The notes beneath the pieces were generated by a model that was given only the letters and a program-made list of their open reading frames with translations, was not told the DNA's origin and ran no database searches. DNA of 64,000 bases, taken from Bacillota bacterium. GTDB taxonomy: Bacteria > Bacillota > JAAYKD01. Below are positions 27,501-59,946 of the stretch, one piece after another; the first letter of the stretch is position 1; each line of letters starts with the position of its first letter. The translations under genes and the position numbers were made by a program. The stretch is taken from NCBI GenBank assembly GCA_036744005.1, contig DAINOJ010000003.1, forward strand, positions 29,403 to 93,402, in the 5' to 3' direction.

Positions 27501-30500
27501 TAAACTGGTGGGGTTAAAGGGGGGTACCACTTATTACTATCGAGCCTATGCTACGAACGAAAAGGGTACTGGATACGGTAAGACCATGCAGTTTATCACT
27601 GCAAAGGCCCTAAAACCGACAGTGGTGACGCAATCGGTGAGCTTTGACCCTGCCAGCTGGCAATGGGTTCTGGTGGGAAGTGTTGCCAACAACGGTGGCG
27701 TTCCTTTGGTGGAATATGGCTTCCGCATTAGCAGCGATGAAAGCCAATGGGCGAATTTGGTGGTTGGCTTCGACGTGCGTGGGAATTATATCTCGAGAGG
27801 GTTGCAGTTCATGGATGAACTAACACCCGGTACATACTACATGCGTGCGTATGCTTTGAACCCAGGTGGCATGGGAGAAGGGGAAATCCTCTCGTTTAAG
27901 GTGCCCACCAAACCGAGTATCACGGCTGCAGTGGATAGGGAAAGCATTGTATTGGATCATCTCACACTCGTCGGGACAATCACCGATACGGGCGGTTCAG
28001 AGATTTCTTGTGTGACCACTCAATTTAAGGTTCGCAAAGTGGGTGAAAGCGAATGGACTACACTGGGGACCACCCAAGGTGTGTTTGGAATAGGGGATTT
28101 CCGTTTTGATGCCAGCAGCTTGTCCCCCGGAGCGAAGTATGAGCTCATGGCCGAGGCTCGCAACCAAATTGGCTGGGGAAGCAGTGCGGTGGTTTCTTTC
28201 CAAATGAACTATGGCAAAACAGATCGAGATGCGGTAACGTATTTGAAAACACAAGGAAAGACGGCTACCGAGATTGCTACGCTTTTGAAGACCTATTATC
28301 AAGATAGCCCGGCCTCTGCCTTTGCTGCCTTGGTATTTGGAGAATTCAGCTTAAGTGACATCACAGCGGCGATGAAACAATCGACATATGCCACCAGCCA
28401 CCGTAATGTGGCAAACCTCATTCAACAAGCAGGTTACGATGCTAAGGCTCTGACGAAAGTGATGTTAGAGCATTATGACCGTGATGTACTAATGATGGCC
28501 AGCGGGAATCGAGAAGAAGGTGCCTTGCTGTTAGCCAAAGTCAGTGGGTATACTTCTGTTGATCTTGCCAAAGTATGTTTGGAGCTGTTCCAATACGATA
28601 CAGCAAGAACCGTATCCCGATTAAGTACTTATAATTTCTATGGGCAAGACGAAGCATATCGAGCGGCCCTAGAAGTGTATGGACTAGAGTCTATGATACA
28701 ATTTTTGCTTGCCCAAGCGAATAGCTCCTTGCAACGTAGTGGTCAAGGGCGTATGCTTACAATTTTGACGGAAACAACCGCTTTTTTGCGTAACGTTGCG
28801 AAGTTGAGTTCAGAAGAAACGGCAAGTGTGTTAACGCGTTTTCATGCTGGCTTAAGTGCCAAAGAGCTAGCCAATGCGTTCTATTATGCCAAAGAAACCG
28901 TTTTCGAAACGGGCAAGGCCATTGCTTACTTGTTTGGGAGCAATCTTTCTGATATCGCCAGAGCACTAGAAGATACGCCCTTGAAAGAAGAGCGCATCAA
29001 CGACTACCTGATTTTAGACCTCGGAGCATCGGCTTTGGATATGGTGCCCATTGTGGTCGATATCTATAACCACTGGATGGACCCCAAAGAAGGGTGTGCC
29101 ATTATTTTCAAAACCTACTTCAAGTTAGATGCGATTGGTGCGGCGAAAGTTTTATATGCCGCCGGATGGACGGAGAATGTCGTCGATTATCCCGGTTATG
29201 GATTAGGTAATCTCATTTGGACCATGAAGTTACACTATGGCTACACCAGTGATGCGCAGTTGATTGAAGTATTTAAAGCGCTGGGGTTGTCCCCTCTGGA
29301 AGTAGCCAAACGGTTGGTGAACAATTCCGGCTGGCGGTGGTTACCATCATACCGGTTGGGTGGATACACAGCGACCGATGCCGCGGTCTGGCTCAAAGCA
29401 GATTGGGTGAAATACGGTCGTAGAACGCAAATCAGTCAGACCATTAAGATGTGCTATGAGGCCGGTTATGAGGTATCGGACATTGCATCGGCTTTGATTT
29501 TCCACTATGACCTCGAAATTGCTGAGGCCATGGCATTCTTTGTCGACAACATCAATCTGAGCTCGACAGCCATTAACGAAGCATTAACCAAGGCTTATGG
29601 CAAAGATCCTTTACAAAGCGCAGTAGAAAAAATGAAAGGGCAACCGCTGGAGAAGATTCTTTCGACTCTAAAGAGTACGTATGAAGTGAAAGATCCGGTT
29701 GAGGTGACAAATTTACTAATCAAAGCGGGGTATTCGCAGGAAGCCATTTTCGAAAAGATGATTTGGACCTATTTTGAATCGTTTAATCGGCGAGAGCATC
29801 TTGAGGCATTTACGGCATATCTGCAACAAATAGACTCTGGATTGAATCGAAAAGACGCCATGAATGCATTTCTGCGTCGAAATCAACTTGCGGAAGGCCC
29901 AGAACACGCTGCCGGTTTCCTCAGGCATTCTGCACAGTATTCTATGAGTGAAATCGCGGAAATCTTCCAAAACGAGTACCAAATAACCATTGCAGAGGCG
30001 TTGACCGTCTTCTTTAGCACCTTTGGAGCAGGCAAAGAAGTAGAGTATTACCCGGTTGTCGTCAAGGCCTACGATATGGACGTTAGCAGTTACATCAGAT
30101 ATCAACACAAACGGGGCATTGACGCAACCGAGAGTACCAAAGAACTCATCGACAACTTCAAACTGACCAATCAGATTGAAATCGCAGAAGTCCTCTACAA
30201 AAGTGATTACAATAAAGAAGCCATTGTCCAGAGTTTCCTGCAAGTATACTTCTCCGGTTTTCTAAGTCCGGAAGTAATAACGCTCATGAATGAGTTGGAT
30301 GAGAAGGTATTTAAGCAAGGATTGAGCGTACAAATCGAAACACTGACACAAAAAGGTACGTTGCAACCCGTAACAAAGGTGATTACAACCTTGTACGCCG
30401 CGGGGATTTCGCTAACAGAGATCATCCGAACTCTGAAAGATTTATATGCACTTTCTCAGAAAGAAGCTCATGACAGTACCATGGCGGTGTCTCTGTTCTC

Positions 30501-44346: not shown

Positions 44347-44399
44347 TATCGTAAATTTCCCAAAAGGGTCTGACCCCATTGGGAAAAAAGGAGGAAAAG

Positions 44400-45588
44400 A
44401 TGAAGAAAAAAGGCTTAATGACTCGGTTGACCCACGCCGGTGAGAATACCATGGCGAAGAAGATTGCTACATCGGTCTCGGTGCCCAAGGTGAACCCCAT
44501 TTACATGAGCAGTGTATTTTCCTTTGATGATGTGGAGAGTTTGGATGCCGTCTACGATGGTATCGCCAAAGGGTATGTGTACTCGCGCATGTCGAACCCA
44601 GGGACCGATGCCGTGGAAGAGGTGCTGGCGGAGGCAGAAGATTGTGCCGGAGCTCTTGTATTCTCTTCGGGTATGGCAGCGATTATTACCTCGATTTTGG
44701 CTCATGTGCAGTGTGGTGACCATGTTTTGTCGTCCAATGTGCTGTATGGTGGCGTGTATGATTTTTTTAAAAACGAACTACCGCGGTTTGGTATTGAAAT
44801 CACCTTGGCTGATTTCGAAAAGGAAGATGTCAAAGCGCTGATTCGACCCAACACCAAGGTCATTTACACGGAGACCATTTCCAACCCGCTCATGGTGGTA
44901 GAAGATTTGCCACACCTTGCACAGGTAGCTCATGCGCATGGATGCAAGCTCATCGTCGATAATACCTTTGCCACGCCGGCGGTCGCGCAGATTTTAAAAC
45001 TGGGGGTGGATGTGGCGGTATACAGTGCGACCAAGTATTTGGGTGGGCATAGTGATATTTTGGGAGGGGCTCTTACAGCCAACGCGGAAACCATGGGCCA
45101 TCTGCGTCGCTACTTTACGTTATATGGTTCGATTATTCGATGCCTGGATGCTGACACGAAGTTTGCGCACCTTGGATTTGCGTATGGAGCGCCACTGTCG
45201 AAACGCACAAAAAGTGGCGGAGTTTTTTGAGAAACACCAGAAAATTGAACGGGTGTATTACCCGGGCTTAGCTTCTTCGCCGTATCACGAAAGGGCCAAG
45301 CAGTTCTTCTTGGAGAATCGCTTTGGTGGCATGCTCTCGGCCGACATTGCCGGTGGCGAAAAGGCAGCAAGCGCGTTTATAAAAGCATGCCCCACTATAA
45401 AATTGGTACCCAGTTTGGCAGGGGTCTCGACCACCATCTCCTACCCGGCCAAGACTTCGCATCGGGCTTACTCGCCGGAAATGTTAAAACAGGTGGGCAT
45501 TTCCACAGGGCAATTGCGTTTTTCGGTGGGCTTGGAGACCATTGACGATATTTTGGAGGAGTTTGACCAGGCATTGAAGCAAATATAG
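44400..45588 (+). pseudogene. Cys/Met-metabolism PLP-dependent enzyme (cystathionine gamma-synthase / methionine gamma-lyase family) interrupted by a frameshift near 45118-45139
   Basis: Frame A (44400-45230) carries the N-terminal and PLP-lysine region (SATKYLGGHSD). Frame B (through 45588) carries the conserved C-terminal region (FDAWMLTRSLRTLDLRMERHC...). Homology switches frame between HLRRYF and FDAW. Confidence 0.6.
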
Positions 45589-45592
45589 AGAA

Positions 45593-45620
45593 ACGACCTC
45601 GAGTGCTTACTCGGGGTCGT
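45593..45620. terminator. Hairpin between convergent genes (probable bidirectional terminator)
   Basis: ACGACCTCGAG...CTCGGGGTCGT imperfect stem, flanked by T-rich sequence. Confidence 0.5.
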
Positions 45621-45645
45621 CTTTGTATGGCGTCATGGAAGATTT

Positions 45646-46281
45646 TTATACAAGATGGTTACGAAGTGCGAAAAGCGCGATTTGGGTACGATCTTGTAAG
45701 CCGGTGGAGGCAAGGATGGCTGAGATGCGGTTACGAATCGTTCCTTCAGAATAATTCAAATGCTCGGCGATCAGGCGATTGGCATAACCAATGCCAATGC
45801 AACGAATGATTTCCAAATCGATTTCGTCAAATTCTAAGTTCAAGTCTGTTGGCATATAGGGTGGAGATGTCACAGCTTGCTCGAGGGTATGCAGTATCGA
45901 AGGATGCATACAAACCAATCCGGCCATGCAACTCTCGATAGCCAAAATAAGAGCAGCCGGTGTCATATCTTTTAACAAATAACCATCGGCATGCAAAGCA
46001 ACCGCTTCCTGGATTTTTTCGTAATCGCCAAATGTGGTTAGCATCACCACTTTCATTTCGGGGAAGGTGGCTTTTAGCTTCTTCAGGGCAAGCAAACCAC
46101 TGCTACCGGGCATTTGAATATCGAGCAAGCAAAGATCGGGAAGATGCTTCGAAGCGAGTCGAACGGCTTCTTCACCATTGCAGGCTCGGGCGATGACCCT
46201 AAAATCAGAGCGACTTCCCAGCAACGTGGCCAACAAATCTAAGAACAGACTCTGATCATCGGCTATTAGAATATGCGTCAT
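45646..46281 (-). CDS. NarL/FixJ (LuxR-type HTH) response regulator
   Basis: Receiver motifs ILIADDQ, LLDIQMPG, and a C-terminal LuxR HTH (IIRCIGIGYANRLIAEHLNYSEGTIRNRISAI). RBS GGAGGG. Confidence 0.85.
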   Translation of the reverse strand: MTHILIADDQSLFLDLLATLLGSRSDFRVIARACNGEEAVRLASKHLPDLCLLDIQMPGSSGLLALKKLKATFPEMKVVMLTTFGDYEKIQEAVALHADGYLLKDMTPAALILAIESCMAGLVCMHPSILHTLEQAVTSPPYMPTDLNLEFDEIDLEIIRCIGIGYANRLIAEHLNYSEGTIRNRISAILASTGLQDRTQIALFALRNHLV

Positions 46282-47110
46282 GACTCATCCCTCCGTGTAC
46301 TAGACGACGAATTTGCTGCAACAATTCACGCAAGCCATGGGCAAGGGTCTGCAGAGTTTCATTTTGACCATCGTTGGCTTGGTTCAACATGTCGGTATCA
46401 CTGAGTAAAAGCAACTCGTCTAGTTTTTTTTGTATTTCCATTTGCAATTGCTCCGCCAATAGTCTTTGTTGTTCCGCCAATAACAAGGCTTCATCTGCTC
46501 GAATTGCCTCTTGCAATTGTTGTTGAATGGCTTGCAACTCTGTCGACTTAAGAGTCCACTCCTGAAACAAAGCTTTCTCGTGGCTGATGTCCTGCAAGAC
46601 GATGAGACACCCTAACGGAATCCCCTTTTGCTGCAATGGCAATTCGCGCAGGATAAAGGTCTGCTCCCCCACTAGCCACTCTTTCTCTGATTTTCGAAGA
46701 GGTAGCACTGCCTGCTCCCATTCCAAAGGCATATTTGAATACACCACTATCCCCGAAGCATTCAACATAAGCAAGGGATCTAGTAACAATGGGGAAACAT
46801 CAGTGACCTTCAACCGAGACGACTTTCCTTTACTTGTTTGCCTCCACTGCCATAACCACCCCAGAATCGCACCCCACCAAATCACGGTTACAGAAACAGA
46901 TAGATACTTCGCAGTAGTGGTCGTCGGTGCAATCACGAGCAAAAACTGCCCCCCGGATGCAAAACAAGCTAACAGCCAAGGCCATACTGCCACAGACCTG
47001 TGCAGGGAAAGATCAAACTGCAGCATGCCGAACCTAAGAAATGTAAGCGCTGCAGTTAACCAAAATAGTAATTGCGGTAGAAACCAAGGACTCATTAGGG
47101 TGTATCGCAT
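46256..47110 (-). CDS. Membrane protein with PAS-like region and a degenerate, histidine-less DHp (HisKA_3-like) segment; no ATPase domain (pseudo-kinase-like)
   Basis: N-terminal TM helices, then EQQRLLAEQLQMEIQKKL...LAHGLRELLQQIRRLVHGG, which aligns by eye to the HisKA_3 pattern with LHD replaced by LQM. Overlaps both the upstream kinase and downstream regulator genes. RBS GGAGGG. Confidence 0.6.
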   Translation of the reverse strand: MRYTLMSPWFLPQLLFWLTAALTFLRFGMLQFDLSLHRSVAVWPWLLACFASGGQFLLVIAPTTTTAKYLSVSVTVIWWGAILGWLWQWRQTSKGKSSRLKVTDVSPLLLDPLLMLNASGIVVYSNMPLEWEQAVLPLRKSEKEWLVGEQTFILRELPLQQKGIPLGCLIVLQDISHEKALFQEWTLKSTELQAIQQQLQEAIRADEALLLAEQQRLLAEQLQMEIQKKLDELLLLSDTDMLNQANDGQNETLQTLAHGLRELLQQIRRLVHGGMSHDAYSNSR

Positions 47111-48729
47111 GATTCAACCCTCCGTTTTAGTAAGGTGTCTATTCGGAACCCTTCCCCTGGGCCATAGGTGAACTTCACCGTTCCGCCCAAAGCAGATACA
47201 CGCTCTTCCATTCCTAGCAATCCGTGACCTTTTTGCAGGTTTTCACAACCCTGACCGTTATCCAAGATGATGAGTTGCACCTGACGAGGTAAATAACGTA
47301 GAACCACATCCATCCTTGTTGCCTTGCTATGCTTAATAGCGTTTGTCAACGCCTCTTGTAACAACCTGTATAAAAGACGGGTTTCCTCTGATCTCAACTC
47401 ATAGGGGTCGCCCTGAACCAACAAGTCTACAGCAATGCCACTGTGAGCGGCTCCGTTTCGAATACTATGTAACGCCATTTGTAAGCTAGTTTGATCCTGT
47501 TTGTTTTCTATCTGCAAGGAAGATTGCCAGTCTGTTCTGCCTTGGATTAAAAGCTCTTTCACTTTGCTTAGCGCTTCCGAAAAGGTCGTGTCTTGTAGCA
47601 AGGCCACCTCTGCTGTCGATAAAGCTAAAACGACCGTATGACCTAAAACGTCGTGCAACTCCTGTAAAACCTTTTGTCGAGCTTTCCACGCAATCCATTC
47701 CTGCCTACGCTGAAGCATTCGCTGCCACCCGGCATTCGCCTCTTGTAAAAGTCGGTTCTGCTCTTCCAGCAGTTGCCTCATCCTCCGAATCGTAGTCACC
47801 GGACGCAAGCGCCACAAGGCACCTGCGGGCACGGTGCTTTTTTCTACCTCGAACCAATCGGATCCCACTTGCACAGTGCTACCCGGGATCCACTCGATGA
47901 ATGGGAGACCTAAAAACACCTCCCTTGCTCGTTCATTGCGGTGTAACACCGTTCCTTGTTCATCGCAAACAAAGCAGGCATCACCGTGTCGCTCAAACAA
48001 TTGTTCTTGTGCCAAGGGAAGCACATCGAGGAAACGGGTTCGCAGGGCAGCCATGGCAAATAAAAGCAAACTGGCATTGGTCGCGATGGGAGTGTAATCA
48101 AAACGAGGGGTATGGTGCAATAGCATTTTGAACCAGCCAAACACATAAAAGAGATTGACAACGAGCGGCAAGAGGATCGCTCCGGTAAATAAGATGGCTT
48201 GTGTCCTTCTATGTTGAAACAAACTGCTATAATCACGGCTCAGCCAGTAGAAGGCAACAGCTAAATAAGCATAGGTAACACTCATGACACCATAGAACAG
48301 AGGTCCGAAATCATCGGCATATAGGGTGAATCGACTATAGAACATAAAGTGCCAAGGGTTACTCCACACGAGCAAAAAACTGATCATTCCGGGCAAAAGC
48401 AGCCAGAAGATTCTCCTGCGCGACGGTAAGCGATGAAACCGATAGACCATGGCAAACAACAATACCAAAGGACCTAAGAAAGAAGAAGCAAAATACTGAA
48501 GTACCACAAAAAACCACCGTAGATCCAAGGTAGAAGCAACGGTCTTGCCGATTTTAGCCAACATCCATAAAGCCAAAGAACCTTGAGCCAACAAATAACA
48601 AGACAACAATGCACCCTTTTTCGCTTTGTGAGAAATAAACCAATTGAAACCAAAGGAAACCAACAATGAGAACAAGTGCCAGGCTTCAATGATAAAAACC
48701 TCGTCTGCTAATTTGGCGGATACTTGCAT
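47095..48729 (-). CDS. Sensor histidine kinase, NarL-partner type (polytopic N-terminal domain, PAS-like, HisKA_3, HATPase_c)
   Basis: About 6-7 N-terminal TM helices, H-box LQELHDVLGHTVV, N-box LLQEALTNAIKHS, G-boxes ILDNGQG and GHGLLGMEERV. Confidence 0.85.
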   Translation of the reverse strand: MQVSAKLADEVFIIEAWHLFSLLVSFGFNWFISHKAKKGALLSCYLLAQGSLALWMLAKIGKTVASTLDLRWFFVVLQYFASSFLGPLVLLFAMVYRFHRLPSRRRIFWLLLPGMISFLLVWSNPWHFMFYSRFTLYADDFGPLFYGVMSVTYAYLAVAFYWLSRDYSSLFQHRRTQAILFTGAILLPLVVNLFYVFGWFKMLLHHTPRFDYTPIATNASLLLFAMAALRTRFLDVLPLAQEQLFERHGDACFVCDEQGTVLHRNERAREVFLGLPFIEWIPGSTVQVGSDWFEVEKSTVPAGALWRLRPVTTIRRMRQLLEEQNRLLQEANAGWQRMLQRRQEWIAWKARQKVLQELHDVLGHTVVLALSTAEVALLQDTTFSEALSKVKELLIQGRTDWQSSLQIENKQDQTSLQMALHSIRNGAAHSGIAVDLLVQGDPYELRSEETRLLYRLLQEALTNAIKHSKATRMDVVLRYLPRQVQLIILDNGQGCENLQKGHGLLGMEERVSALGGTVKFTYGPGEGFRIDTLLKRRVESCDTP

Positions 48730-48783
48730 GATGTCACATCCTTCGCCATGATTCTACTCATTGGGACCAAAAAAGTCAATCAA

Positions 48784-48801
48784 AAATGACAATTGTCATT
48801 T
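48784..48801. promoter_or_regulatory. Perfect 18-bp palindrome AAATGACAATTGTCATTT in the divergent intergenic region
   Basis: Verified base by base. Lies between the kinase operon start (48729) and the small-protein / 2536-aa protein operon start (48880). Confidence 0.6.
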
Positions 48802-48879
48802 CGATTTGGCGGATTCTCACTGTCCCCTCTCCATGGATGCATGTTACACTGGAAAAAAATACAGGAGAAGAGGGATACT

Positions 48880-49119
48880 ATGGAAGAGCATTTCATCCAA
48901 GAACTCTTTGATTTAGGAGAAATCATTGCCAAGCTGGAAGAACGCAGCGTGCGCTTATATGAAAGATTGGGAAGAGAGAGTTACTTACATCGGGAATCTG
49001 ATGCCGCTTTGACACGATTGGAACTACAATATGTGCAAAGCGAGTTGCAAAAGCAAAAGAAGCGACTGGAAGGATTTCATTTTCCAGGAGCATCGGACAA
49101 CAAGGAGGAACGCTCATGA
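48880..49119 (+). CDS. Small coiled-coil protein (79 aa), translationally coupled to the 2536-aa protein gene
   Basis: RBS AGGAGAAGAGGGA before ATG; its TGA stop overlaps the ATG of the next gene (ATGA). Sequence MEEHFIQELFDLGEIIAKLEERSVRLYERL... Confidence 0.5.
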   Translation: MEEHFIQELFDLGEIIAKLEERSVRLYERLGRESYLHRESDAALTRLELQYVQSELQKQKKRLEGFHFPGASDNKEERS

Positions 49120-52100
49120 GACAATCCAAGACACGAATTCTTTGTTTTATTTTACTATTTGTCTCTATGATGATGCAGGTTTCTACACCGATTTCTGCGC
49201 AATCGCTACTGGGTAACGCGCAAGTCCATCGATTGGAATGGACCAGACACCTTGCCGAAGAGGGGGAGGACTCTTTTACTCTGGATGCTGTACATATAGA
49301 GAAAGGGGAAAGCCAGCAAGCGATGGGTTTCCTCACGGCGCAACTCAATGGGAAAATGATAGGGTTGCATCCTTTGGCTTTACCCGATGCAGCAGGAATG
49401 TATCGCATCGGCGACATCGCTTGGACGTTACAAGGCGACCCACAACTCTATAAGATTAAGGTAATCTTGCTGCAAAATCTGCAAGGCTTATTACCCATGA
49501 ATCGGATGTATCAGCTTGGCGAACGCTCTGCCCCGGAAATCGTGACCATCGCTCCAGATCAAGGCAGCTTTGGCACATCTGTCTTATTGACAGGACAGGG
49601 TTTTGCCAGCACTCCGGAGCGAAATATTGTACGGTTCATCCAAGCGGATGGCACAAAACTGTCTGCCTCGGTGGTTTCGGTAGGGAGCAATTACCTAGAG
49701 GTGCTGGCTCCGGTGCTCAATGCCGGCATTCATCAGGTTGAAGTCGAGGTCGAGGGGCGTATAAGTAATCAGAAGAGCTTCAACGCCGAAGCCCTTCCAG
49801 CAGCTCAAGGAAATGAAACACGACAACTCATGCAGGTTACACAATCGTTGTTGACCACTGCCGAGGAGGTGTCCGATACACTACAGGTGGCGAGTTTACC
49901 ACTTGCTCTACAGAGTCAAATGGTACAGTTGTTGGGAGAAGCAGAACAACAAATGAATCATGCTCAGACCGAGCTGATGCAATATTCCCCTGAAGCCCAA
50001 GAACTAATCAATCGTATGCTACAAAGTAGTGGAGTGCCAGAGCAGATCGCTCCCTTGAATAAAGATCCCGTGGGACTCTTGGCAGAAACAGGTCAAGATT
50101 ATACGATTGGAGACCGTTTGGAGAAAGTTGACCAAATCACAAACGACGTGCGTAATGCCAGAGACAAGATTCGCAGTCTCGACCGAAATCTGAAAATAAT
50201 GGAAGCATCACTCACTGTAGGCGGCATTGCCGGATTAGTTTTTGGAGGTTCGGGAAGCGGTGCTATTGCCTTGGCTGCCGAAATTGAAAGCTTTCGTCAA
50301 GCTATCATTCAACCGATACTGCTTAGTTTACGAGCCATTTATACAGTACTCAGCTGTAGCACCAGCAGTGCAGTTGCAGGGTCGTTGCGCTTTGAGTATG
50401 TGGATGATGTTCACATCGAGCAATACTTTGGCCATGCTCAAGAACCAGCACTTCCCGAGTGGCAGAATGAATCTTTGCTAAGCAGCTTGAGCAACGTGTT
50501 TGTGGGTATAGAAGAACTGCAATATCTGCACGATGACGTACTGCACTTGCTGCAGCAACCCTATGGAAGCACAAGCGAGACCATGCCCGAAGGCTTTAGC
50601 ACCGATATGCTACGTGCGTTGCAGCAGATTTCTTTATATGAGGACAACTGGAGACGATTAACACAACAAGCGGATCAGACTTTTTTGCCCGGTGAAACCT
50701 TAAGAAATAATGCCGGTGAGATAGAAGTGTTAATGAAGCAGTATCGCAGAATCGTCAACCAAATCCGTTCGGCGGGAGATAAGATGTTGCAGGATTTGAT
50801 GTATGCGCAAATCAATCCGCAAATGAGTTTTGATCACGATTGGTACCAAAGTATGAAGTATGCTATTGGGGATTTGCTGCGAGAAGCCAACAGCCTAAAC
50901 AGTGTACTAAATGCATTGATTTCTGAATTTCACGAACCGGAACAACTGAACTTTGAAGAAGAATCGCCCGCTTATGCGGGATTTATCGATACGCCAGGAA
51001 TCTTATTGGCAGGCCAATCCTACATAGCACGAGGAAACATGGACTTTAATGTCGGTTTGGACGAAACCAGAGGTCTCGACAACATGTTAGACGGCATTGG
51101 TACTAGTTTTATTGTCGATTTAGTGGGTGGATTGGTGGATCTGGAGTTGGAACTGGAAAACGTTGATGTACGACTCTCGGCGGTATCGTCAGATGAGAGT
51201 GTGTTGCGAACCGAATGGAGCGACAGCATCGGGTTGCGCTTGATTCCACTCAAACCAGGCTTGGTGACCGTAACGATTGTTCCAAACATTCGCCTCGTTA
51301 GGGAAGGAAAGATAAAAGCAGAGTATATCTCGGTGAGTAAACCTTTCCGTGTTATCTCTGCCAATCAGATAGCAGAGGAGTATTCGGTCAATGCTCCATT
51401 GGGCCCAAACTTGGAACATGTGACAGATGAAGCGGGGTTGGAAACTCGCCAAGTTTATTTGGGAGAGACTCTACATGTACAGGGACTGGGTTTTGCTTCT
51501 TCGAGTCAGTACATGAACGTGTATACCGCAGGAGTTCCGGGGATTCATATAGATGGTTTGTTACCTGACTTTCTCTATAAAGGTGTGGGTAGTGAACAGC
51601 AACGCCGAGAAGAACTTTGCATGGAAGTGCCGGACACCTTGTCCGGGCAGCTAAGAGTGGCAGTGCACTTAAAGCAAGCCATGGAAGGCGGAGCGCCTAT
51701 CGATCGTTCAGCGGGATTATCCAATGGAATAGACCTGCAAGTTTTGGCCCCCGTCATCGACTTTATGCCGCCGAATCTCATCGATGGCGAAAGTTATCCA
51801 GTTTTAGGTCGTGGCTTCTCGCATACTCCATGGATGAACAAGATTATATTCGATGACTTTGAAGCAACGAATCCCCAAAGCCAGTCACAATACTACGCAA
51901 TTGTTGAACCAAGTCTGGAAGAACCATTTACTCAACCCAAAGAATACAATGAAGTCACCGCCGAAAATCACCCGTTATTACACGTGTTGCACGAACGCCT
52001 TACTTTTTTGGCAGACGGACAAACCTCCAGTTCACTGAACAACCGTATCAAGGTGCTAGAGCAGGAAGATATGAGTGACATAGCCGGTGGTAGTTTGGTG

Positions 52101-55100
52101 CAAAGCTGGGGATCCGAAATTGTATTTTCGCAAAATGGCATCACCTCAATGCGACCACTATTGGCCGAGGATGAAACCAGCGGCTTACGCATGGCTGCTT
52201 GGGTTGCTCTAAACGAACGTGGCGCAGCTCAGTGGATTGCTGCTGAAATCTATGCGAACGGGAATATGGCTACACCTCAGCACATCGCCTCCAATTTAGG
52301 TTCCATGGAGACCGCACCCGATAAAGGTTGTTTAGTCGCTTATCGTAACCGGTTTTACTTCGTATACACCGGTCGTGATGGAGAGTTAGATCGATTGTAT
52401 TGCAGTATTTATGATGGAGGAAGTTGGTCGATACCCGTCCCTTTGACGGGAGGAATGAGTTCCGCTTTGAAGCCGGTCGCCTGGGTAGGTGATTGGCAAG
52501 ACGACAATCAGGCTGAGTTGTTTTTGGCGTACATTGCTGACGATGGCATGGTCGGCCAAACCATTACGGCGTGGTACACCTTACCTTCATCCGGAGCTCA
52601 ATTACTAGATCAAGTGGTTTTGTCGGCTAACAGCATATCGCGCCCGGCATTAACCAAACATGAAAATGGTTTTTACGTGGCATATCAGGGGATTCATTTA
52701 AGACAGAGTGATCTCTACCTGTGCCATGTGCAAATCTCTGCAAATTCAACATCCTTGCTCCCGGCTGCATCTTTGAGACTAAGTCGCAACAGTGGCGAAG
52801 CACAAGCCGAGAATCCTTCCATCGTCATTGGTCGACACCCGGTCAGTGCGGCTGAGCAAGTTGTGGTAGTGTGGGAGAACTCTGCACCTGCCTCTGGAAC
52901 CATGAACCAGCGTGAGGAGGTGTATTTGGCGACTGTAACCGGGGGAGTCGTCAACGAACCGGTGAATCTAACCCATTCTGAAGGTCATTCGCAAAGTCCC
53001 ACCTTAGCACTGGGTAAAGATGGTAGCATTGCTCTCCTGTTTTTAGAGATCACACCTGCGGGGATATCGGAGAATCAGACCCTGGGCTATACGTCGCAAG
53101 TCTGGTTTACTCGTTCTTTCGATGGAGGAACTCATTTCCAAAGACCCTATTACCCGCTAACCAGTCGTATTCAAGGCGTGCGATTGGGTCATCCTGCTTT
53201 GCTTAACCGCGGTGATGGCAAGGTCAACATGACATGGCAAGCCGGCGATCAATTGTTTTGGCGAAGTAGCGGTGAAACAATCATCCCACCGAGCGAATAT
53301 CCGGCGAATCTACTTACTCCTCGCAAACAAACCTTTGGGTATTCTAATGACGAAACAGGTGTTCGTTTGCTGAATGGAGCAGGAGAGCCCTTGCGTAGAA
53401 TAACAACTGCTACGGGGTGGATGCAAGCATACCCTAGTGAGATGTTGCGTCTAGCTGTTTCTCCTTCGGGTCGTTATGTAGCATTGCCAGGATATTGGCT
53501 TCAAATATCCGAAGCGGACGGCTCACATCCGTTGGACATTGCTCTACCGCATGACATAGAAGAAGAAATGCCCAAACACATTGCTTGGGGATTGGATGAA
53601 CAGGAACTTCGCGTATCGTATGTGGAATTTGGCATCAACAACGCGCAACCTCTAGGAACATGGCAACGGGAAGCGGTGGAAGGCGAGGTGGCTCGTTCTT
53701 ACGGTTTTTCATGGGATCGTCAGGAACGCTACATTCTGCAAAGAGAATGGTTGGACAGCATACCCACTCTGCACCGGGACTTTTATGTGGTCGATAGTGT
53801 AAGTGGAGAAGAGAGGTATGTAACATCGCTACCGAATCGTTTGTTGGCAATATCTCCTGATGGAACCGCAGTGCTCTTACACGATAGTCAAGGTGCTGGT
53901 AGAAATCGGGATGGCTTGGTCCTGCGACAACTCGGAGGAGCCTCAGTGGTATTGTATGAAGGAATTCCTGAAGCAGCAGCGTTTTCATTTAATGGTCGAT
54001 ATATTGCTGCTGTTATGCGACAAACCGGACAACAGGCCGTTTTAAAAGTCTGGGATCTCCATAGTGGAACCTGCTGGGATTTGGCACTTCTGGTGGATAA
54101 CATCGAACGGCTTTCGTTTAGTCCCGATAACAATCGAGTTTTCTGGCAGACCACACAAGCAACCTGGCATACACAAACAGCAGGCGGTGACTCGCAAGTC
54201 GCGAAAACATTTATACAGAATTTTGTTACAGTGGGCCAGGCGAGTGAAACCATGCACGTTTCTGCCGCAGCCAGTGTGTGGAAAAATCGTGCAGGAAGCG
54301 AGATAGGCGTCACGCTGCGTCAGACACCTACAGCAGATGTCACGGTTCAAGTGGTGGTCCCAATGGGGTTGGTTGCATTGCCACAAAGCGTTTCGTTTGC
54401 TGCCGGAGAAGCGCCGATTGCGAGAAAAGTTGGTATCTATGCTCAAGATTCGATGCCAGCAGGACTGAGCACCATTGCTTTACGACTACATTCCGCAGAT
54501 TTACGATTTGAAGGAGTGGAGCAACATGTATCAGTAATCACATCGGAAGCCGCGCCATTCACATCCGGTTTGGGCTACAGCGCTGCCGATTATGGCGATT
54601 TGGCTGTCTATCCGATTTTGCATAATTGGAACAGACAGGTACCGATTGCAGCTGCTGATTGGGAACAACCGTTGTGGCAGGTCAACCCCAGCTTCAATGA
54701 TGTGAAGGTGTTGCAGGCCGGAAATGGTGTCACACTGATGTATGGACGCGATTACATGTACCATGTACATGCGTATAGCAAAACGGGGCAATTGCTCTGG
54801 GAAACCGATGGGAAGTCCCCTTTGCTACAGGGCGAAGACGCGGTTTTCTTACGTGGAGACAATATGTTAATCCGAAAGGATTTACTCACTGGGGAAGAGC
54901 ACCCTCTGATTTTATATCGAGCAGATGGCACAGAGTGGAGATTCTGGACGAGTGACTTGTTCTATGCCGATACGCAGGGGAACATGTACGCTCTGGCTCA
55001 ACGTATGTGGGGTGAGACATTCTTGCACGTATTGCGAATCGAGCCAAACGGACGAGTGAGCGATCATCTTATCGACGAGGCACAGTATTGGCAAGGCGAC

Positions 55101-56726
55101 ATTCCGGTAGTGACTCAAGATGGCAAGCTTCTTGTTGCGCACAATCATACCATTGATGTGATGCGTTTGGACGATTTTTCGGTGGAGCAGACGCTGTATG
55201 GGGTGGACCATTTGTTGTCAGCAGCCATGTTGGATTTTGTTTCACCACAATATTCAATCTTCTATGTCATGAACGATCAGGGTACCTCCACATTGCTGAC
55301 CGCTATGTCCACCAAGAATGCATCGCCACTGTGGCAACGAGTTTTAGCGGGAACATGGAACCAAGTGGGACAACCGGTTCTACATCCACAAGGTATGATG
55401 ATGTTGCCTGTGGGATCGTCGATGCTGGCATTGGGGAGCCAAGACGGCAAAGTGCTATGGCAACAGGATTTTGAGGAAGAAATATCGGGAGCACCGGTCC
55501 TGGATGCCAGAGGTGATATATATGTAACAGTCGGTGATGACCTACTGCGCTTGTCAGGAGAAGGAGTGCTACTACAACGCAAGAGCTTTGGCGAAGGAGG
55601 GCGCTTCGCAGTGAATACTTGCATTGGCCATGCGGGCCAAGTGATCTTTGGTGGAGGTATGACTGCAGACCAAACGAGGTATCCGATTTATGCATGGGGT
55701 GTAACCTTGGAAGAACCCTTGGTCAGCGATGTAGTACTAGCCGATTCTTTGCTGCGCGTTCGCGAAGACGAAGGGGAATTGCGTGTACGGTTGCTGGATC
55801 AATCCTCAGGTGAGAAAGGTGGCTTTGAAGTGGAGGCGCAGCTGTTACCTCTCACGGCAATACAGGGTACGGATTATCAGCTCAATTACAAAAACAGCAC
55901 CGGACGAGTTGCATTCGCCGAGGGTGCAGAGGAAGCGTGGCTGTATATTGATATATTCGATGGGTACGATGTACAATCGAGCCGAGATTTTTTAGTGAAG
56001 ATCGTAGGTGTGACGGGTGAAAAGACCTTTACCAGCAATGTGACTACGGTGCTGGTGGAAGATGTCAGTGTGGCACCGGAGCAGCGTTCCCGCGTAGGTT
56101 GGGGGGTAGGAGAAATGCTATATAAAGAAGGAGAAAGTGGCAACATGGTGCTGAAACGTTCTCCAAACAGCATAGGAACCTTGCCGGAGTTGGAGGTGCG
56201 GTTGCAAATCGGGAGCCCGGGAAGTTATTTCGCCTATACCGAGGCACTACAAGGGGTGGATTATTCCGCACAATGGACTCCCGACAGCGCTGGGCGGGTG
56301 ACGATTTTGTTTGCCGAAGGGCAGAGCGAGGTTATCATACCATGGCAGGCATTCATGCGGGAAGGGATGCAAGGGCTACGCAAATGGGACGTACGAGTAT
56401 GGATGAACTCTGCAGTAGACCCCGACTTTTCTATGCCGCAGACCTATGTCAGCGAGCTCAAATTATATGTGGCAGAGGGAGACTTTGCGGTTCCGGAACC
56501 GAGAATCAAGCAGGTAGGCGAGACAGAGTGGAAGGTTTCCAATATACTATATGGTGGATGGTTCGAAGTAGAGACCTCCGATGGCACTGTTTTGCAGCAC
56601 ACGAACGGATACCTTCAGTCGCTCGATGGGGAATACTCGGTGTATGATTTACCCGCCGGTAATCCACTAATCTTGCGTTCCGGCTTCGCCAACCAATCTA
56701 CCACTCTGACATTTAACACACCCTAA
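49116..56726 (+). CDS. Giant secreted multidomain protein (2536 aa): signal peptide, IPT/TIG-like domain, long helical region, BNR/Asp-box-like and PQQ-like beta-propeller regions, Calx-beta-like domains
   Basis: RBS AAGGAGG 7 nt before ATG. Signal-like N-terminus MRQSKTRILCFILLFVSMMMQVSTPISAQS. IPT-like segment IVTIAPDQGSFGTSVLLTGQGFAS...IVRF. Asp-box-like TRSFDGGTHF. Calx-beta-like LPLTAIQGTDYQL...VAFAEGAEEAWLYIDIFDG. Confidence 0.8.
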   Translation: MRQSKTRILCFILLFVSMMMQVSTPISAQSLLGNAQVHRLEWTRHLAEEGEDSFTLDAVHIEKGESQQAMGFLTAQLNGKMIGLHPLALPDAAGMYRIGDIAWTLQGDPQLYKIKVILLQNLQGLLPMNRMYQLGERSAPEIVTIAPDQGSFGTSVLLTGQGFASTPERNIVRFIQADGTKLSASVVSVGSNYLEVLAPVLNAGIHQVEVEVEGRISNQKSFNAEALPAAQGNETRQLMQVTQSLLTTAEEVSDTLQVASLPLALQSQMVQLLGEAEQQMNHAQTELMQYSPEAQELINRMLQSSGVPEQIAPLNKDPVGLLAETGQDYTIGDRLEKVDQITNDVRNARDKIRSLDRNLKIMEASLTVGGIAGLVFGGSGSGAIALAAEIESFRQAIIQPILLSLRAIYTVLSCSTSSAVAGSLRFEYVDDVHIEQYFGHAQEPALPEWQNESLLSSLSNVFVGIEELQYLHDDVLHLLQQPYGSTSETMPEGFSTDMLRALQQISLYEDNWRRLTQQADQTFLPGETLRNNAGEIEVLMKQYRRIVNQIRSAGDKMLQDLMYAQINPQMSFDHDWYQSMKYAIGDLLREANSLNSVLNALISEFHEPEQLNFEEESPAYAGFIDTPGILLAGQSYIARGNMDFNVGLDETRGLDNMLDGIGTSFIVDLVGGLVDLELELENVDVRLSAVSSDESVLRTEWSDSIGLRLIPLKPGLVTVTIVPNIRLVREGKIKAEYISVSKPFRVISANQIAEEYSVNAPLGPNLEHVTDEAGLETRQVYLGETLHVQGLGFASSSQYMNVYTAGVPGIHIDGLLPDFLYKGVGSEQQRREELCMEVPDTLSGQLRVAVHLKQAMEGGAPIDRSAGLSNGIDLQVLAPVIDFMPPNLIDGESYPVLGRGFSHTPWMNKIIFDDFEATNPQSQSQYYAIVEPSLEEPFTQPKEYNEVTAENHPLLHVLHERLTFLADGQTSSSLNNRIKVLEQEDMSDIAGGSLVQSWGSEIVFSQNGITSMRPLLAEDETSGLRMAAWVALNERGAAQWIAAEIYANGNMATPQHIASNLGSMETAPDKGCLVAYRNRFYFVYTGRDGELDRLYCSIYDGGSWSIPVPLTGGMSSALKPVAWVGDWQDDNQAELFLAYIADDGMVGQTITAWYTLPSSGAQLLDQVVLSANSISRPALTKHENGFYVAYQGIHLRQSDLYLCHVQISANSTSLLPAASLRLSRNSGEAQAENPSIVIGRHPVSAAEQVVVVWENSAPASGTMNQREEVYLATVTGGVVNEPVNLTHSEGHSQSPTLALGKDGSIALLFLEITPAGISENQTLGYTSQVWFTRSFDGGTHFQRPYYPLTSRIQGVRLGHPALLNRGDGKVNMTWQAGDQLFWRSSGETIIPPSEYPANLLTPRKQTFGYSNDETGVRLLNGAGEPLRRITTATGWMQAYPSEMLRLAVSPSGRYVALPGYWLQISEADGSHPLDIALPHDIEEEMPKHIAWGLDEQELRVSYVEFGINNAQPLGTWQREAVEGEVARSYGFSWDRQERYILQREWLDSIPTLHRDFYVVDSVSGEERYVTSLPNRLLAISPDGTAVLLHDSQGAGRNRDGLVLRQLGGASVVLYEGIPEAAAFSFNGRYIAAVMRQTGQQAVLKVWDLHSGTCWDLALLVDNIERLSFSPDNNRVFWQTTQATWHTQTAGGDSQVAKTFIQNFVTVGQASETMHVSAAASVWKNRAGSEIGVTLRQTPTADVTVQVVVPMGLVALPQSVSFAAGEAPIARKVGIYAQDSMPAGLSTIALRLHSADLRFEGVEQHVSVITSEAAPFTSGLGYSAADYGDLAVYPILHNWNRQVPIAAADWEQPLWQVNPSFNDVKVLQAGNGVTLMYGRDYMYHVHAYSKTGQLLWETDGKSPLLQGEDAVFLRGDNMLIRKDLLTGEEHPLILYRADGTEWRFWTSDLFYADTQGNMYALAQRMWGETFLHVLRIEPNGRVSDHLIDEAQYWQGDIPVVTQDGKLLVAHNHTIDVMRLDDFSVEQTLYGVDHLLSAAMLDFVSPQYSIFYVMNDQGTSTLLTAMSTKNASPLWQRVLAGTWNQVGQPVLHPQGMMMLPVGSSMLALGSQDGKVLWQQDFEEEISGAPVLDARGDIYVTVGDDLLRLSGEGVLLQRKSFGEGGRFAVNTCIGHAGQVIFGGGMTADQTRYPIYAWGVTLEEPLVSDVVLADSLLRVREDEGELRVRLLDQSSGEKGGFEVEAQLLPLTAIQGTDYQLNYKNSTGRVAFAEGAEEAWLYIDIFDGYDVQSSRDFLVKIVGVTGEKTFTSNVTTVLVEDVSVAPEQRSRVGWGVGEMLYKEGESGNMVLKRSPNSIGTLPELEVRLQIGSPGSYFAYTEALQGVDYSAQWTPDSAGRVTILFAEGQSEVIIPWQAFMREGMQGLRKWDVRVWMNSAVDPDFSMPQTYVSELKLYVAEGDFAVPEPRIKQVGETEWKVSNILYGGWFEVETSDGTVLQHTNGYLQSLDGEYSVYDLPAGNPLILRSGFANQSTTLTFNTP

Positions 56727-59895: not shown

Positions 59896-59946
59896 TGCGG
59901 TATGTAACTAAAATTGAAACATTTACATGGATTGGGGGAGAATGCT

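What the first reader, a model, noticed from the sequence alone, without database searches (positions are those of the whole stretch)
45646..48729. Three-gene signalling unit: histidine kinase, histidine-less kinase paralog, NarL-type regulator, with overlapping reading frames
Between a bona fide HisKA_3 kinase and its LuxR-type regulator lies a 284-aa membrane protein with a PAS-like region and a DHp-like segment in which the phospho-acceptor motif LHD is replaced by LQM; it has no ATPase domain. All three genes overlap by 16-26 nt, implying translational coupling. This looks like a built-in modulator (decoy dimerisation partner or phosphatase-only partner) of the kinase, an architecture I do not recognise as a described system.
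Basis: partly seen in the sequence, partly recalled or inferred. Interest (0 to 1): 0.65.

Follow-up and report, generated by a model that had tools for sequence, protein, structure and literature searches.

The report
Kinase operon with built-in pseudokinase
Between a normal bacterial sensor kinase and its DNA-binding regulator lies a conserved, membrane-anchored copy of the kinase's sensor and dimerisation parts that has lost both the phosphorylated histidine and the ATP-binding domain. It most likely acts as a built-in, non-catalytic partner that tunes the signalling pair.

Summary
On the minus strand lie a HisKA_7TM/PAS/HisKA_3/HATPase_c kinase (47095-48729), a 284-aa protein (46256-47110) and a NarL-type regulator (45646-46281). 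They overlap by 16 and 26 nt, and each downstream start has its own GGAGGG ribosome-binding site.

The middle protein matches no Pfam or NCBIfam model, but profile comparison shows it is a truncated kinase paralog:
- Its PAS+linker matches the neighbouring kinase's (97.6%, E 4e-12).
- Its C-terminal hairpin matches HisKA_3 DHp domains (92-96%; score 47 against at most 16.5 for shuffles).
- Gln223 sits exactly on the phospho-histidine.
- There is no catalytic domain.

It belongs to a tiny unnamed family: 14 hits among 1.84 billion representatives, all 213-333 aa. Every member lies directly upstream of the regulator, and purifying selection is evident.

The canonical phosphatase motif DxxxQ is absent, so the "phosphatase-only" idea is disfavoured. 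The PAS-to-His/Gln spacing is 47 residues in both proteins in six loci. An invariant Arg also matches the regulator-contacting Arg235 of DesK. Both points favour a non-catalytic partner of the kinase and/or regulator, but this is inference.

A conserved palindrome (ATGACAATTGTCAT) upstream of the operon links it to a divergent giant surface-protein operon.

Verdict: a new variant of the known kinase-pseudokinase theme.

The parts
47095..48729 (-). Sensor histidine kinase, 544 aa: 7-TM N-terminal domain, small PAS-like domain, S-helix linker, HisKA_3-type DHp (His359 in LQELHDVLGH) and HATPase_c.
   Evidence: One search gives the ORF. One search gives HisKA_7TM at 1.6e-29 and HATPase_c at 9.6e-9. 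One search aligns it to a generic HisKA_3+CA profile at 99.9%, E 4e-37, with N and G boxes present.
46256..47110 (-). Pseudo-histidine kinase, 284 aa: 3 TM helices, PAS-like domain, linker and DHp hairpin. It has no catalytic domain and carries Gln223 in place of the phospho-His.
   Evidence: Searches show the ORF has no curated family. hhalign results are. One search gives the AF2 model at pLDDT 77. One search shows Foldseek top hits to PAS-DHp kinases. One search shows the family has 14 hits, all 213-333 aa.
46826..47083 (-). Membrane anchor of the pseudokinase (residues 10-95, three predicted TM helices). The N-terminal motif M-x-Y-x-T-M-x-P-x-F and the loop motif V-T-A-P-T are conserved in the family.
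   Evidence: One search gives helices 10-31, 36-60 and 64-95. Searches give the family consensus. Homology to the kinase 7-TM domain is not significant.
46586..46789 (-). PAS-like domain of the pseudokinase (residues about 108-175), ending in the D-I-S/T motif.
   Evidence: One search shows the strands and one helix. One search shows hits to cytoplasmic PAS domains of CitA and WalK. One search aligns it to the PAS region of the cognate kinase at 92.8%, E 3.9e-7.
46268..46585 (-). Linker (S-helix) plus DHp-like helical hairpin (residues 176-281), with invariant Arg261 and Arg268 in helix 2.
   Evidence: One search gives helices 176-243 and 249-281. One search aligns it to HisKA_3 DHp at 92-96%. 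One search gives the shuffle control, 47.1 against a maximum of 16.5. One search gives R261 and R268 in 15 of 15.
46442..46444 (-). Codon CAA for Gln223, at the position of the phospho-accepting histidine.
   Evidence: One search gives the sequence. Searches align it on the His of ELHD. One search gives the family states Q10, H2, E2, R1.
45646..46281 (-). NarL/LuxR-type response regulator, 211 aa. The receiver residues D8/D9, D54, T82 and K104 are present, followed by a GerE-type HTH.
   Evidence: The receiver residues were read directly from the translation.
47095..47110 (-). 16-nt overlap between kinase and pseudokinase. The GGAGGG ribosome-binding site lies 7 nt upstream of the ATG.
46256..46281 (-). 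26-nt overlap between pseudokinase and regulator. The GGAGGG ribosome-binding site lies 8 nt upstream of the ATG.
   Evidence: The same 26-nt overlap is present in L001 and L006.
48751..48779 (-). Sigma-70-type promoter of the three-gene operon: TTGACT, 17 nt, TAGAAT.
   Evidence: One search gives 10 of 12 matches. It is the only good match on this strand in 45500-49200.
48784..48801 (.). Perfect 18-bp palindrome AAATGACAATTGTCATTT (core 48786-48799). It lies just upstream of the -35, between the divergent operons, and is the candidate operator of the regulator.
   Evidence: One search shows it is unique in the window. Searches find the exact 14-mer at the equivalent place in L007, L008/L009 and L010. 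Searches find it with one mismatch in L006, L094 and L096.
45593..45620 (.). GC-rich hairpin between the convergent ends of the regulator gene and the neighbouring gene, probably the operon terminator.
   Evidence: One search gives a 12-pair stem. It was scored on the + strand only.
48880..49119 (+). Conserved small (79 aa) coiled-coil protein gene, transcribed divergently from the kinase. It overlaps the giant gene by 4 nt.
   Evidence: alignment A6 across 6 loci. One search finds no Pfam family.
49116..56726 (+). Giant (2536 aa) surface-type protein gene, the conserved neighbour and probable target of the system.
   Evidence: One search gives TIG and a weak PQQ_2 hit. Equivalent giant genes (TIG, Calx-beta, SLH, LRR) lie in L007, L008, L094 and L096.

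Best explanation
The middle gene encodes a membrane-anchored pseudo-histidine kinase. It is a degenerate paralog of HisKA_7TM/PAS/HisKA_3 kinases that keeps a membrane anchor, the PAS-like sensor, the coiled-coil linker and the DHp dimerisation hairpin. It has lost the ATP-binding domain, the phospho-accepting His (now Gln) and the adjoining catalytic Asp. It is co-transcribed, and probably translationally coupled, with a catalytically intact kinase and a NarL-type regulator. Transcription starts from one promoter that carries a conserved palindromic operator. Because it can neither phosphorylate nor be phosphorylated, nor catalyse the canonical dephosphorylation, it must act by binding. The most likely mode is pairing in register with the kinase through PAS, linker and DHp, and/or docking the regulator through its retained helix-2 arginine. 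Either way it would set the kinase/phosphatase balance, and hence the level of phosphorylated regulator. That regulator in turn controls the operon itself and the divergent small-protein plus giant surface-protein operon. Shown: the domain anatomy, the paralogy, the losses, the conservation and the gene linkage. Inferred: the physical partners, the sign of the effect and the target genes.
For: Paralogy and anatomy:
- The family profile aligns to the cognate kinase orthologs at 97.6%, E 3e-12 over 264 columns.
- PAS+linker alone scores 69.7 against a shuffle maximum of 15.8.
- The C-terminal hairpin aligns to generic HisKA_3 DHp at 92-96%, E 6e-7 to 4e-9, with Gln223 on the His. Its score of 47.1 compares with shuffles of 10.6 +/- 2.0 and a maximum of 16.5.
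- The family HMM hits full-length HisKA_7TM kinases P0012 (2e-17) and P0010 (7e-16), from the last TM helices to DHp helix 1.
- The AF2 model shows 3 TM helices, a PAS-like sheet and a helical hairpin. Foldseek top hits are WalK, VicK, LOV-kinase chimeras and NifL.
- Across the 15 members, the commonest weak Pfam hits are HisKA_3 and PAS.

Losses:
- No member exceeds 333 aa.
- The His position is Q in 10, H in 2, E in 2 and R in 1. Position +1 is never Asp.

Selection and linkage:
- pN is 0.30 against pS 0.73.
- 15 intact variants are on record.
- The gene sits directly upstream of the regulator gene in every context seen, even where the kinase gene has moved.

Partner clues:
- The spacing from the D-I-T motif to the His/Gln is 47 residues in both proteins in 6 of 6 loci.
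- Arg268, equivalent to DesK Arg235 which salt-bridges the regulator (PMC5231405), is kept in 15 of 15 family members. Only 3 of 11 cognate kinases keep it.

Operon: there is a single promoter with a conserved palindrome.

Precedents for non-catalytic kinase paralogs acting by binding: RocA-CovS (PMC7028121), FasC-FasB (PMC12675982), RetS-GacS (PMC8498467) and ChrS_CA-fs with HrrS (PMC9491836).
Against: - No interaction was tested, and heterodimer modelling was not possible with the tools.
- The DHp region of the family is not significantly similar to the cognate kinase's own, rather divergent DHp (score 12.6 against a shuffle maximum of 14.8). Pairing through the DHp is therefore not implied by similarity.
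- The helix-1 residues after the Gln are charged, coiled-coil-like, and unlike the hydrophobic regulator-docking face of the kinase.
- Identical linker length may only reflect common descent.
- Two members keep a His and two carry Glu at that position, so the family may not have one uniform mechanism.
- That the palindrome is the regulator's site is inferred only from co-conservation.
Confidence: 0.6

Rival explanations
1. Regulator-sequestering homodimer. The pseudokinase forms its own dimer and docks the regulator's receiver domain without any chemistry. It would buffer the regulator or hold it at the membrane, away from the kinase or from DNA, until its PAS or TM sensor releases it.
For: - The gene is invariably adjacent to and upstream of the regulator gene, even when the kinase gene is elsewhere in the operon (and all other contexts).
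- The helix-2 Arg equivalent to DesK Arg235, which contacts the regulator (PMC5231405), is invariant.
- The regulator carries the K104-D105 pair, read.
Against: - Helix 1 below the Gln does not resemble the docking face of the cognate kinase.
- One conserved Arg is thin evidence.
- The strongest similarity to the kinase lies in PAS+linker, which is a dimerisation and signal-transmission module rather than a regulator-binding one.
Confidence: 0.2
2. Phosphatase-only partner. The His-less DHp dephosphorylates the phosphorylated regulator, as kinase-negative, phosphatase-positive His-to-Gln mutants of HisKA_3 kinases do.
For: It has a HisKA_3-type DHp. From my own knowledge, not checked here: a Gln at the His position is compatible with phosphatase activity in mutant kinases.
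Against: The DxxxQ pair required for HisKA_3 phosphatase activity (PMC3510030, PMC5231405) is absent. Position +1 is Asp in 0 of 15 members, and position +5 is Gln/His in 2 of 15. In the window protein these positions are Met224 and Lys228.
Confidence: 0.05
3. Split-kinase or phosphorelay element. The DHp-only protein is phosphorylated in trans by the catalytic domain of the neighbouring kinase and passes the phosphoryl group to the regulator, as proposed for FasB/FasC or M. tuberculosis HK1/HK2.
For: - Two family members, P0070 and P0074, have His at the site in the same operon layout.
- In FasBCA, the TM+DHp part of FasC is sufficient and its His246 is required (PMC12675982).
Against: - The window protein and 9 other members have Gln, and others have Glu or Arg, which cannot carry a phosphoramidate.
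- The neighbouring kinase has its own intact His box.
Confidence: 0.04
4. Decaying remnant of a duplicated kinase gene, or an assembly or frameshift artefact that splits one kinase.
For: It lacks catalytic features and evolves faster than its neighbours: pN is 0.30 against 0.22 for the kinase and 0.15 for the regulator.
Against: - The length and domain set are the same in 15 clusters drawn from 1.84 billion representatives.
- pN is well below pS.
- 15 intact 284-aa variants come from independent assemblies.
- The N-terminal motif is conserved and the gene has its own ribosome-binding site.
- The upstream kinase is already complete.
- The gene order differs in L011.
Confidence: 0.02
5. A role outside phosphosignalling, for example a membrane scaffold or chaperone-like factor for export or anchoring of the giant surface protein. 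In that case it merely shares the operon.
For: The giant protein gene and a small coiled-coil protein gene are conserved neighbours.
Against: - In L011 and L095 the middle gene stays with the regulator although the giant gene is not seen next to it.
- All recognisable parts are signalling modules.
Confidence: 0.09

Closest known systems
RocA, the pseudokinase accessory protein of the CovS/CovR system of group A Streptococcus (PMC7028121)
   Same: It is a membrane-spanning homolog of sensor kinases that needs neither its His nor its catalytic domain. It acts by interacting with a real kinase to shift the regulator's phosphorylation.
   Different: - RocA still has a His and a degenerate CA domain.
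- It is encoded away from covRS.
- It belongs to a different kinase subfamily.
- There is no detectable sequence relationship to the family described here.
FasB/FasC/FasA three-component system of group A Streptococcus (PMC12675982)
   Same: - Two kinase-like genes plus one regulator lie in one operon.
- The two kinase-like proteins are proposed to heterodimerise through their DHp domains.
- The TM+DHp part of FasC suffices, and FasC is proposed to be a pseudokinase.
   Different: - FasC keeps a CA domain in nature, and its His246 is essential.
- Here the CA domain is naturally absent and the His is replaced.
- FasA is a ComE/LytTR-type regulator, not a NarL-type one.
ChrS_CA-fs, a laboratory-evolved CA-less pseudokinase of the HisKA_3 kinase ChrS in Corynebacterium glutamicum (PMC9491836)
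   Same: It is a HisKA_3-type kinase without a functional catalytic domain that still shapes signalling with a paralogous kinase (HrrS). The two proteins form heterodimers in two-hybrid assays.
   Different: - It arose by a frameshift in the laboratory.
- It retains the His.
- It is not a separately conserved gene family.
RetS-GacS multikinase network of Pseudomonas aeruginosa (PMC8498467)
   Same: One kinase-family protein modulates another by direct contact through the DHp dimerisation interface.
   Different: - RetS is a full hybrid kinase with catalytic and receiver domains.
- It is encoded elsewhere.
- It is of HisKA rather than HisKA_3 type.
HK1/HK2/TcrA of Mycobacterium tuberculosis (listed in PMC9321153; details from my own knowledge)
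   Same: It is a natural three-protein system in which the DHp part and the ATP-binding part of a kinase are separate polypeptides encoded next to the regulator.
   Different: - There the DHp-only protein carries the phospho-accepting His and the partner lacks it.
- Here the full kinase is complete and the DHp-only protein lacks the His.
DivL of Caulobacter (PMC4211667)
   Same: It is a kinase-family protein whose phospho-accepting His is naturally replaced. It works as a binding module for a response regulator and controls another kinase.
   Different: - DivL has Tyr at the site and keeps a CA domain.
- It is cytoplasmic and polar, and essential for the cell cycle.
- It is not operon-linked to its partners.

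Membership tests
HisKA_3 DHp domain (PF07730) | Helical hairpin homologous to the family profile | tested here: met
   - Profile-profile comparison gives 92-96%, E 6e-7 to 4e-9.
- The score of 47.1 compares with a column-shuffle maximum of 16.5.
- The AF2 model shows the hairpin as helices 176-243 and 249-281.
- Single sequences fail the Pfam threshold. The best family member reaches E 0.0025.
HisKA_3 DHp domain (PF07730) | Phospho-accepting His in helix 1 | tested here: not met
   Gln223 aligns on the His. The family states are Q10, H2, E2 and R1.
HisKA_3 DHp domain (PF07730) | Asp next to the His and Gln/His one turn later (the DxxxQ kinase/phosphatase motif) | tested here: not met
   Position +1 is Asp in 0 of 15 members, against 52 of 52 in generic kinases. 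Position +5 is Gln/His in 2 of 15, against 42 of 52.
HisKA_3 DHp domain (PF07730) | Conserved Arg in helix 2 (the DesK Arg235 position) | tested here: met
   Arg268 is present in 15 of 15 members and aligns on the 'dvR' Arg of the generic profile. In P0013 that Arg lies at His+47, as in DesK (PMC5231405).
Functional sensor histidine kinase | HATPase_c catalytic domain with N and G boxes | tested here: not met
   - There is no hit.
- The protein ends after DHp helix 2.
- Only the DHp columns of the DHp+CA profile are matched.
- All family members are at most 333 aa.
PAS domain | Five-stranded antiparallel sheet fold with flanking helices | tested here: met
   - The AF2 model places strands at 113-174.
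- Foldseek hits PAS domains of CitA, WalK, Aer2 and others with probability about 1.0 and E 6e-3 to 7e-2.
- The region aligns to the PAS region of the cognate kinase at 92.8%.
- Pfam PAS models give sub-threshold hits only.
Bacterial pseudokinase accessory proteins (RocA/FasC type; a functional class, not a sequence family) | Homology to sensor kinases combined with absence or dispensability of kinase chemistry | tested here: met
Bacterial pseudokinase accessory proteins (RocA/FasC type) | Physical interaction with, and modulation of, a cognate kinase | not testable with these tools
   Only indirect clues are available: the shared operon, and the identical 47-residue PAS-to-site spacing in 6 of 6 loci.
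Split kinase (HK1/HK2 type) or Spo0B-like phosphotransferase | The DHp-only protein carries a phosphorylatable His | tested here: not met
   The window protein has Gln223. Only P0070 and P0074 in the family have His.
LiaF/VraT-type accessory proteins of HisKA_3 kinases | Sequence membership in the LiaF-type families | tested here: not met
   No Pfam or NCBIfam match of that kind was found for any of the 15 members.
NarL/LuxR-type response regulator (the third gene) | Receiver domain with phospho-acceptor Asp, plus a GerE-type HTH | tested here: met
   - Response_reg scores 2.9e-26.
- GerE scores 23.0 bits, just under the 23.5 cut-off.
- The NarL model scores 2.4e-35.
- D8/D9, D54, T82 and K104 were read.
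HisKA_7TM / HisKA_3 sensor kinase (the first gene) | 7-TM domain, His box and complete catalytic domain | tested here: met

The most novel reading that the evidence does not exclude
The kinase and the pseudokinase form an obligate asymmetric heterodimer with divided labour. The full kinase supplies the His box and the ATP-binding domain. The pseudokinase supplies a second membrane/PAS input and the helix-2 arginine of a composite docking site for the regulator. This would explain why that arginine is invariant in the pseudokinase but relaxed in the cognate kinases. It would be a naturally hard-wired two-input kinase, encoded as a fixed three-gene unit.
Probability: 0.2. Interest if true: 0.7.

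Novelty: new variant of a known kind. Interest (0 to 1): 0.5.

Why it matters
Kinase-pseudokinase partnerships are only now being recognised in bacteria. The known cases are few and mostly involve proteins that still look like complete kinases. This family shows that evolution has stripped a kinase paralog to exactly membrane anchor, PAS, linker and DHp. It removed the chemistry and fixed the gene between the kinase and the regulator.

That makes it a clean natural system for two questions:
- What does a DHp/PAS module contribute without catalysis: heterodimerisation, regulator docking or a second input?
- How is signalling specificity kept when two DHp domains share one regulator?

The locus also offers a complete, compact circuit for study: sensor pair, regulator, conserved operator and a giant surface-protein target. 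It comes from uncultured bioreactor bacteria.

Tried and rejected
1. BLASTP of the middle protein against the adjacent kinase found nothing significant. Phmmer against PDB sequences also found nothing. Only profile methods revealed the relationship.
2. The word-indexed protein search gave only two relatives. The exhaustive HMM search was needed.
3. Two scans of GTDB species genomes failed to recover the lineage. The second returned only generic HisKA_3 kinases, mostly from Actinomycetota, and one distant Peptoanaerobacter kinase. The organism therefore remains unidentified: uncultured, from a bioreactor metagenome. The window genes scanned against NCBIfam held no taxonomic marker.
4. Homology of the 3-TM anchor to the kinase's 7-TM domain was marginal, 20.7 against a shuffle maximum of 18.6, and is not claimed.
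5. I tested 'complementary degeneration', meaning the kinase lost the helix-2 Arg while the pseudokinase kept it. It is only partly true: 3 of 11 cognate kinases still have the Arg, including the closest ortholog. It stays a hint, not a finding.
6. The 327-aa protein downstream of the distant kinase in L012 is unrelated to the family.
8. The inverted-repeat tool missed the window's zero-spacer palindrome. It was found by direct inspection and pattern search.

Full report
**1. What is in the sequence**

Three tightly packed ORFs lie on the minus strand:
- a 544-aa protein, 47095-48729
- a 284-aa protein, 46256-47110
- a 211-aa protein, 45646-46281

They overlap by 16 and 26 nt. Both downstream ATG codons are preceded at 7-8 nt by GGAGGG inside the preceding gene. 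The starts are therefore well supported, and translational coupling is plausible.

Only one good sigma-70-type promoter lies on this strand: TTGACT-17-TAGAAT, at 48779 to 48751. No promoter or terminator consensus lies on the operon's strand between the genes (the only minus-strand terminator-like match falls inside the kinase gene), and a GC-rich hairpin follows the last gene. The three genes therefore form one operon.

**2. The flanking genes are ordinary and intact**

- The first protein hits HisKA_7TM (1.6e-29) and HATPase_c.
- It aligns to a profile of 52 generic HisKA_3 kinases at 99.9%, E 4e-37. His359 sits in LQELHDVLGH, and the N and G boxes are present.
- The third protein is a receiver plus GerE-type HTH regulator. 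Its best NCBIfam model is NarL at 2.4e-35.
- It has the usual D8/D9, D54, T82 and K104, read.

**3. The middle protein is a truncated kinase paralog**

It matches nothing in Pfam, NCBIfam or PDB sequences. BLASTP against its neighbour is also negative.

An exhaustive HMM search of 1.84 billion representative proteins found 14 relatives. All are 213-333 aa, so none carries a catalytic domain.

A profile of the family gives these results:
- It aligns to the orthologs of the adjacent kinase at 97.6%, E 3e-12. The alignment runs from the last TM helix through the PAS-like domain and the linker into DHp helix 1.
- Taken by segment, PAS+linker carries the signal, scoring 69.7 against at most 15.8 for 25 column shuffles.
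- The C-terminal hairpin is not significantly similar to the cognate kinase's own divergent DHp.
- The hairpin is clearly similar to generic HisKA_3 DHp domains at 92-96%, E 6e-7 to 4e-9. Its score of 47.1 compares with 10.6 +/- 2.0 for 60 shuffles (maximum 16.5) and 14.8 for the reversed alignment.
- The family HMM also hits full-length HisKA_7TM kinases directly: P0012 at 2e-17 and P0010 at 7e-16.

The AlphaFold model has a mean pLDDT of 77. It shows three TM helices, a small PAS-like sheet, a 68-residue helix and a returning helix. Its best Foldseek matches in the PDB are PAS-DHp kinases (WalK, VicK, LOV-kinase chimeras), NifL and isolated cytoplasmic PAS domains.

**4. What has been lost and what has been kept**

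Lost:
- In every alignment Gln223 falls on the phospho-accepting His.
- Across the 15 family representatives that position is Gln in 10, His in 2, Glu in 2 and Arg in 1.
- The next residue is never Asp, whereas 52 of 52 generic kinases have Asp there.
- The residue one turn later is Gln/His in only 2 of 15, against 42 of 52.
- These two residues form the DxxxQ pair required for phosphatase activity in HisKA_3 kinases (PMC3510030, PMC5231405). A canonical phosphatase role is therefore unlikely.

Kept:
- Two helix-2 arginines, R261 and R268, are invariant.
- R268 aligns with the conserved Arg that in DesK (Arg235) salt-bridges Asp103 of the regulator (PMC5231405).
- Only 3 of 11 cognate kinases keep that Arg.
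- The distance from the D-I-T motif at the end of the PAS domain to the His or Gln is exactly 47 residues, in both the kinase and the pseudokinase, in six loci whose kinases are only about 40% identical.

**5. It is a real, selected gene with fixed neighbours**

- Fifteen near-identical variants, all 284 aa, occur in independent assemblies.
- Against the 53-57% identical ortholog, pN is 0.30 and pS 0.73. This gives dN/dS of about 0.14, although dS is saturated.
- It evolves faster than the kinase (pN 0.22) and the regulator (pN 0.15).
- Wherever sequence upstream of it is available, the kinase gene precedes it (the window, L001-L010, L093, L094, L096). The regulator gene follows directly wherever sequence downstream is available.
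- In L011 the order is pseudokinase, regulator, kinase. In L095 it is again directly upstream of a regulator.
- A more distant HisKA_7TM kinase (L012) has no such gene.
- The exact overlaps vary between loci, but spacing is always tight.

**6. The wider module**

In most loci a 77-91-aa coiled-coil protein gene followed by a giant surface-type protein gene is transcribed divergently from the kinase gene (it is not called in L096 and absent from L011).
- In the window these are 48880-49119 and 49116-56726. The giant protein is 2536 aa, with a TIG domain and a weak PQQ_2 hit.
- Elsewhere the giant proteins carry TIG, Calx-beta, SLH or LRR domains.

The intergenic region holds a perfect palindrome, AAATGACAATTGTCATTT, at 48784-48801.
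- It is unique in the window and ends 6 nt before the -35 of the operon promoter.
- The 14-nt core is exactly conserved at the same place in L007, L008/9 and L010.
- It carries one mismatch in L006, L094 and L096.
- The surrounding DNA in these loci is otherwise unalignable.

The regulator is the only recognisable DNA-binding protein of the conserved module. I therefore infer that the palindrome is its operator, giving autoregulation and control of the giant-protein operon.

**7. Mechanism**

Shown: the middle protein has the membrane anchor, sensor, linker and dimerisation hairpin of a kinase, but none of its chemistry.

Inferred: it works by binding. I rank the options as follows.
- (a) In-register pairing with the kinase through PAS, linker and DHp, possibly together with docking of the regulator through Arg268. 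This would tune the kinase/phosphatase balance.
- (b) A separate homodimer that sequesters the regulator.
- (c) A role outside phosphosignalling.
- (d) A phosphatase.
- (e) A phosphorelay element. This is conceivable only for the two His-bearing relatives.
- (f) A remnant or artefact.

The sign of the effect, activation or inhibition, cannot be deduced.

**8. Comparison with known systems**

The closest functional precedents are:
- RocA-CovS (PMC7028121)
- FasB/FasC/FasA (PMC12675982)
- the laboratory-evolved CA-less ChrS, which still acts with HrrS (PMC9491836)
- RetS-GacS (PMC8498467)
- DivL (PMC4211667)

None is a sequence relative. All of them retain a catalytic-domain remnant, the His, or both. 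The M. tuberculosis HK1/HK2 split kinase has a DHp-only protein, but one that carries the His.

This family is therefore a new variant of a known kind. It is a naturally DHp-only, His-less kinase paralog hard-wired between kinase and regulator.

Of its two mechanistic guesses, the 'decoy or dimerisation partner' remains viable and the 'phosphatase-only partner' is disfavoured.

**9. Limits**

- No interaction or activity was tested.
- The family is small, at 15 clusters.
- The organism is unknown: uncultured, from bioreactor and other metagenomes, and absent from GTDB representatives in my scans.
- The operator assignment rests on co-conservation only.

Noticed in passing
window 48784-48801: A perfect 18-bp palindrome, AAATGACAATTGTCATTT, lies between the divergent kinase operon and the small-ORF/giant-protein operon, 6 nt upstream of the -35. 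Its 14-nt core is exactly conserved, or has one mismatch, at the same place in seven other loci whose kinases are only about 40% identical. It is a likely operator of the NarL-type regulator.
   Followed up: yes
window 48880-49119 and 49116-56726 (+): A conserved 79-aa coiled-coil protein with no known family (motif LFxLGExIxxLE...LG) is encoded with a 4-nt overlap ahead of a 2536-aa surface-type protein (TIG, weak PQQ_2). This pair accompanies the kinase operon in most related loci.
   Followed up: partly
window 44379-45588 (+), frame change near 45136-45152: A Cys/Met-metabolism PLP enzyme gene (cystathionine synthase/lyase type) is split into two overlapping ORFs by a +1 frameshift. The ortholog in L006 is one intact 398-aa gene. 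The near-identical strain in L004 is also called as two genes, so this is either a real pseudogene or a recurrent sequencing error.
   Followed up: partly
window 18517-32190 (+): A second, even larger ORF of 4557 aa lies in the same window. It was not analysed.
   Followed up: no
window 47096-47125 and 46267-46296 (-): The two gene junctions are nearly the same sequence: CGGAGGGTTGAATCATGCGA and CGGAGGGATGAGTCATGACG. This may reflect a shared optimal coupling signal or an old duplication boundary.
   Followed up: no
window 328-1884 (-), 5390-6955 (+), 59914-62640 (+): The window is rich in other signalling genes. It holds a KdpD-like histidine kinase C-terminal half, a GGDEF diguanylate cyclase and a 908-aa PAS-GGDEF protein with a c-di-GMP phosphodiesterase-like C-terminus.
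   Followed up: no
P0070 (L093) and P0074 (L094:6001-6924): Two members of the pseudokinase family carry His at the phospho-site position (IHEEL and IHLEL) in the same operon layout. L094 comes from NCBI assembly GCA_028693645.1. These relatives might still be phosphorylated in trans.
   Followed up: partly
L011:2130-5357: In one distant locus the gene order is pseudokinase, regulator, kinase. The pseudokinase there is strongly degenerate around the phospho-site, and the neighbours differ: an ankyrin-repeat protein and no giant protein.
   Followed up: partly
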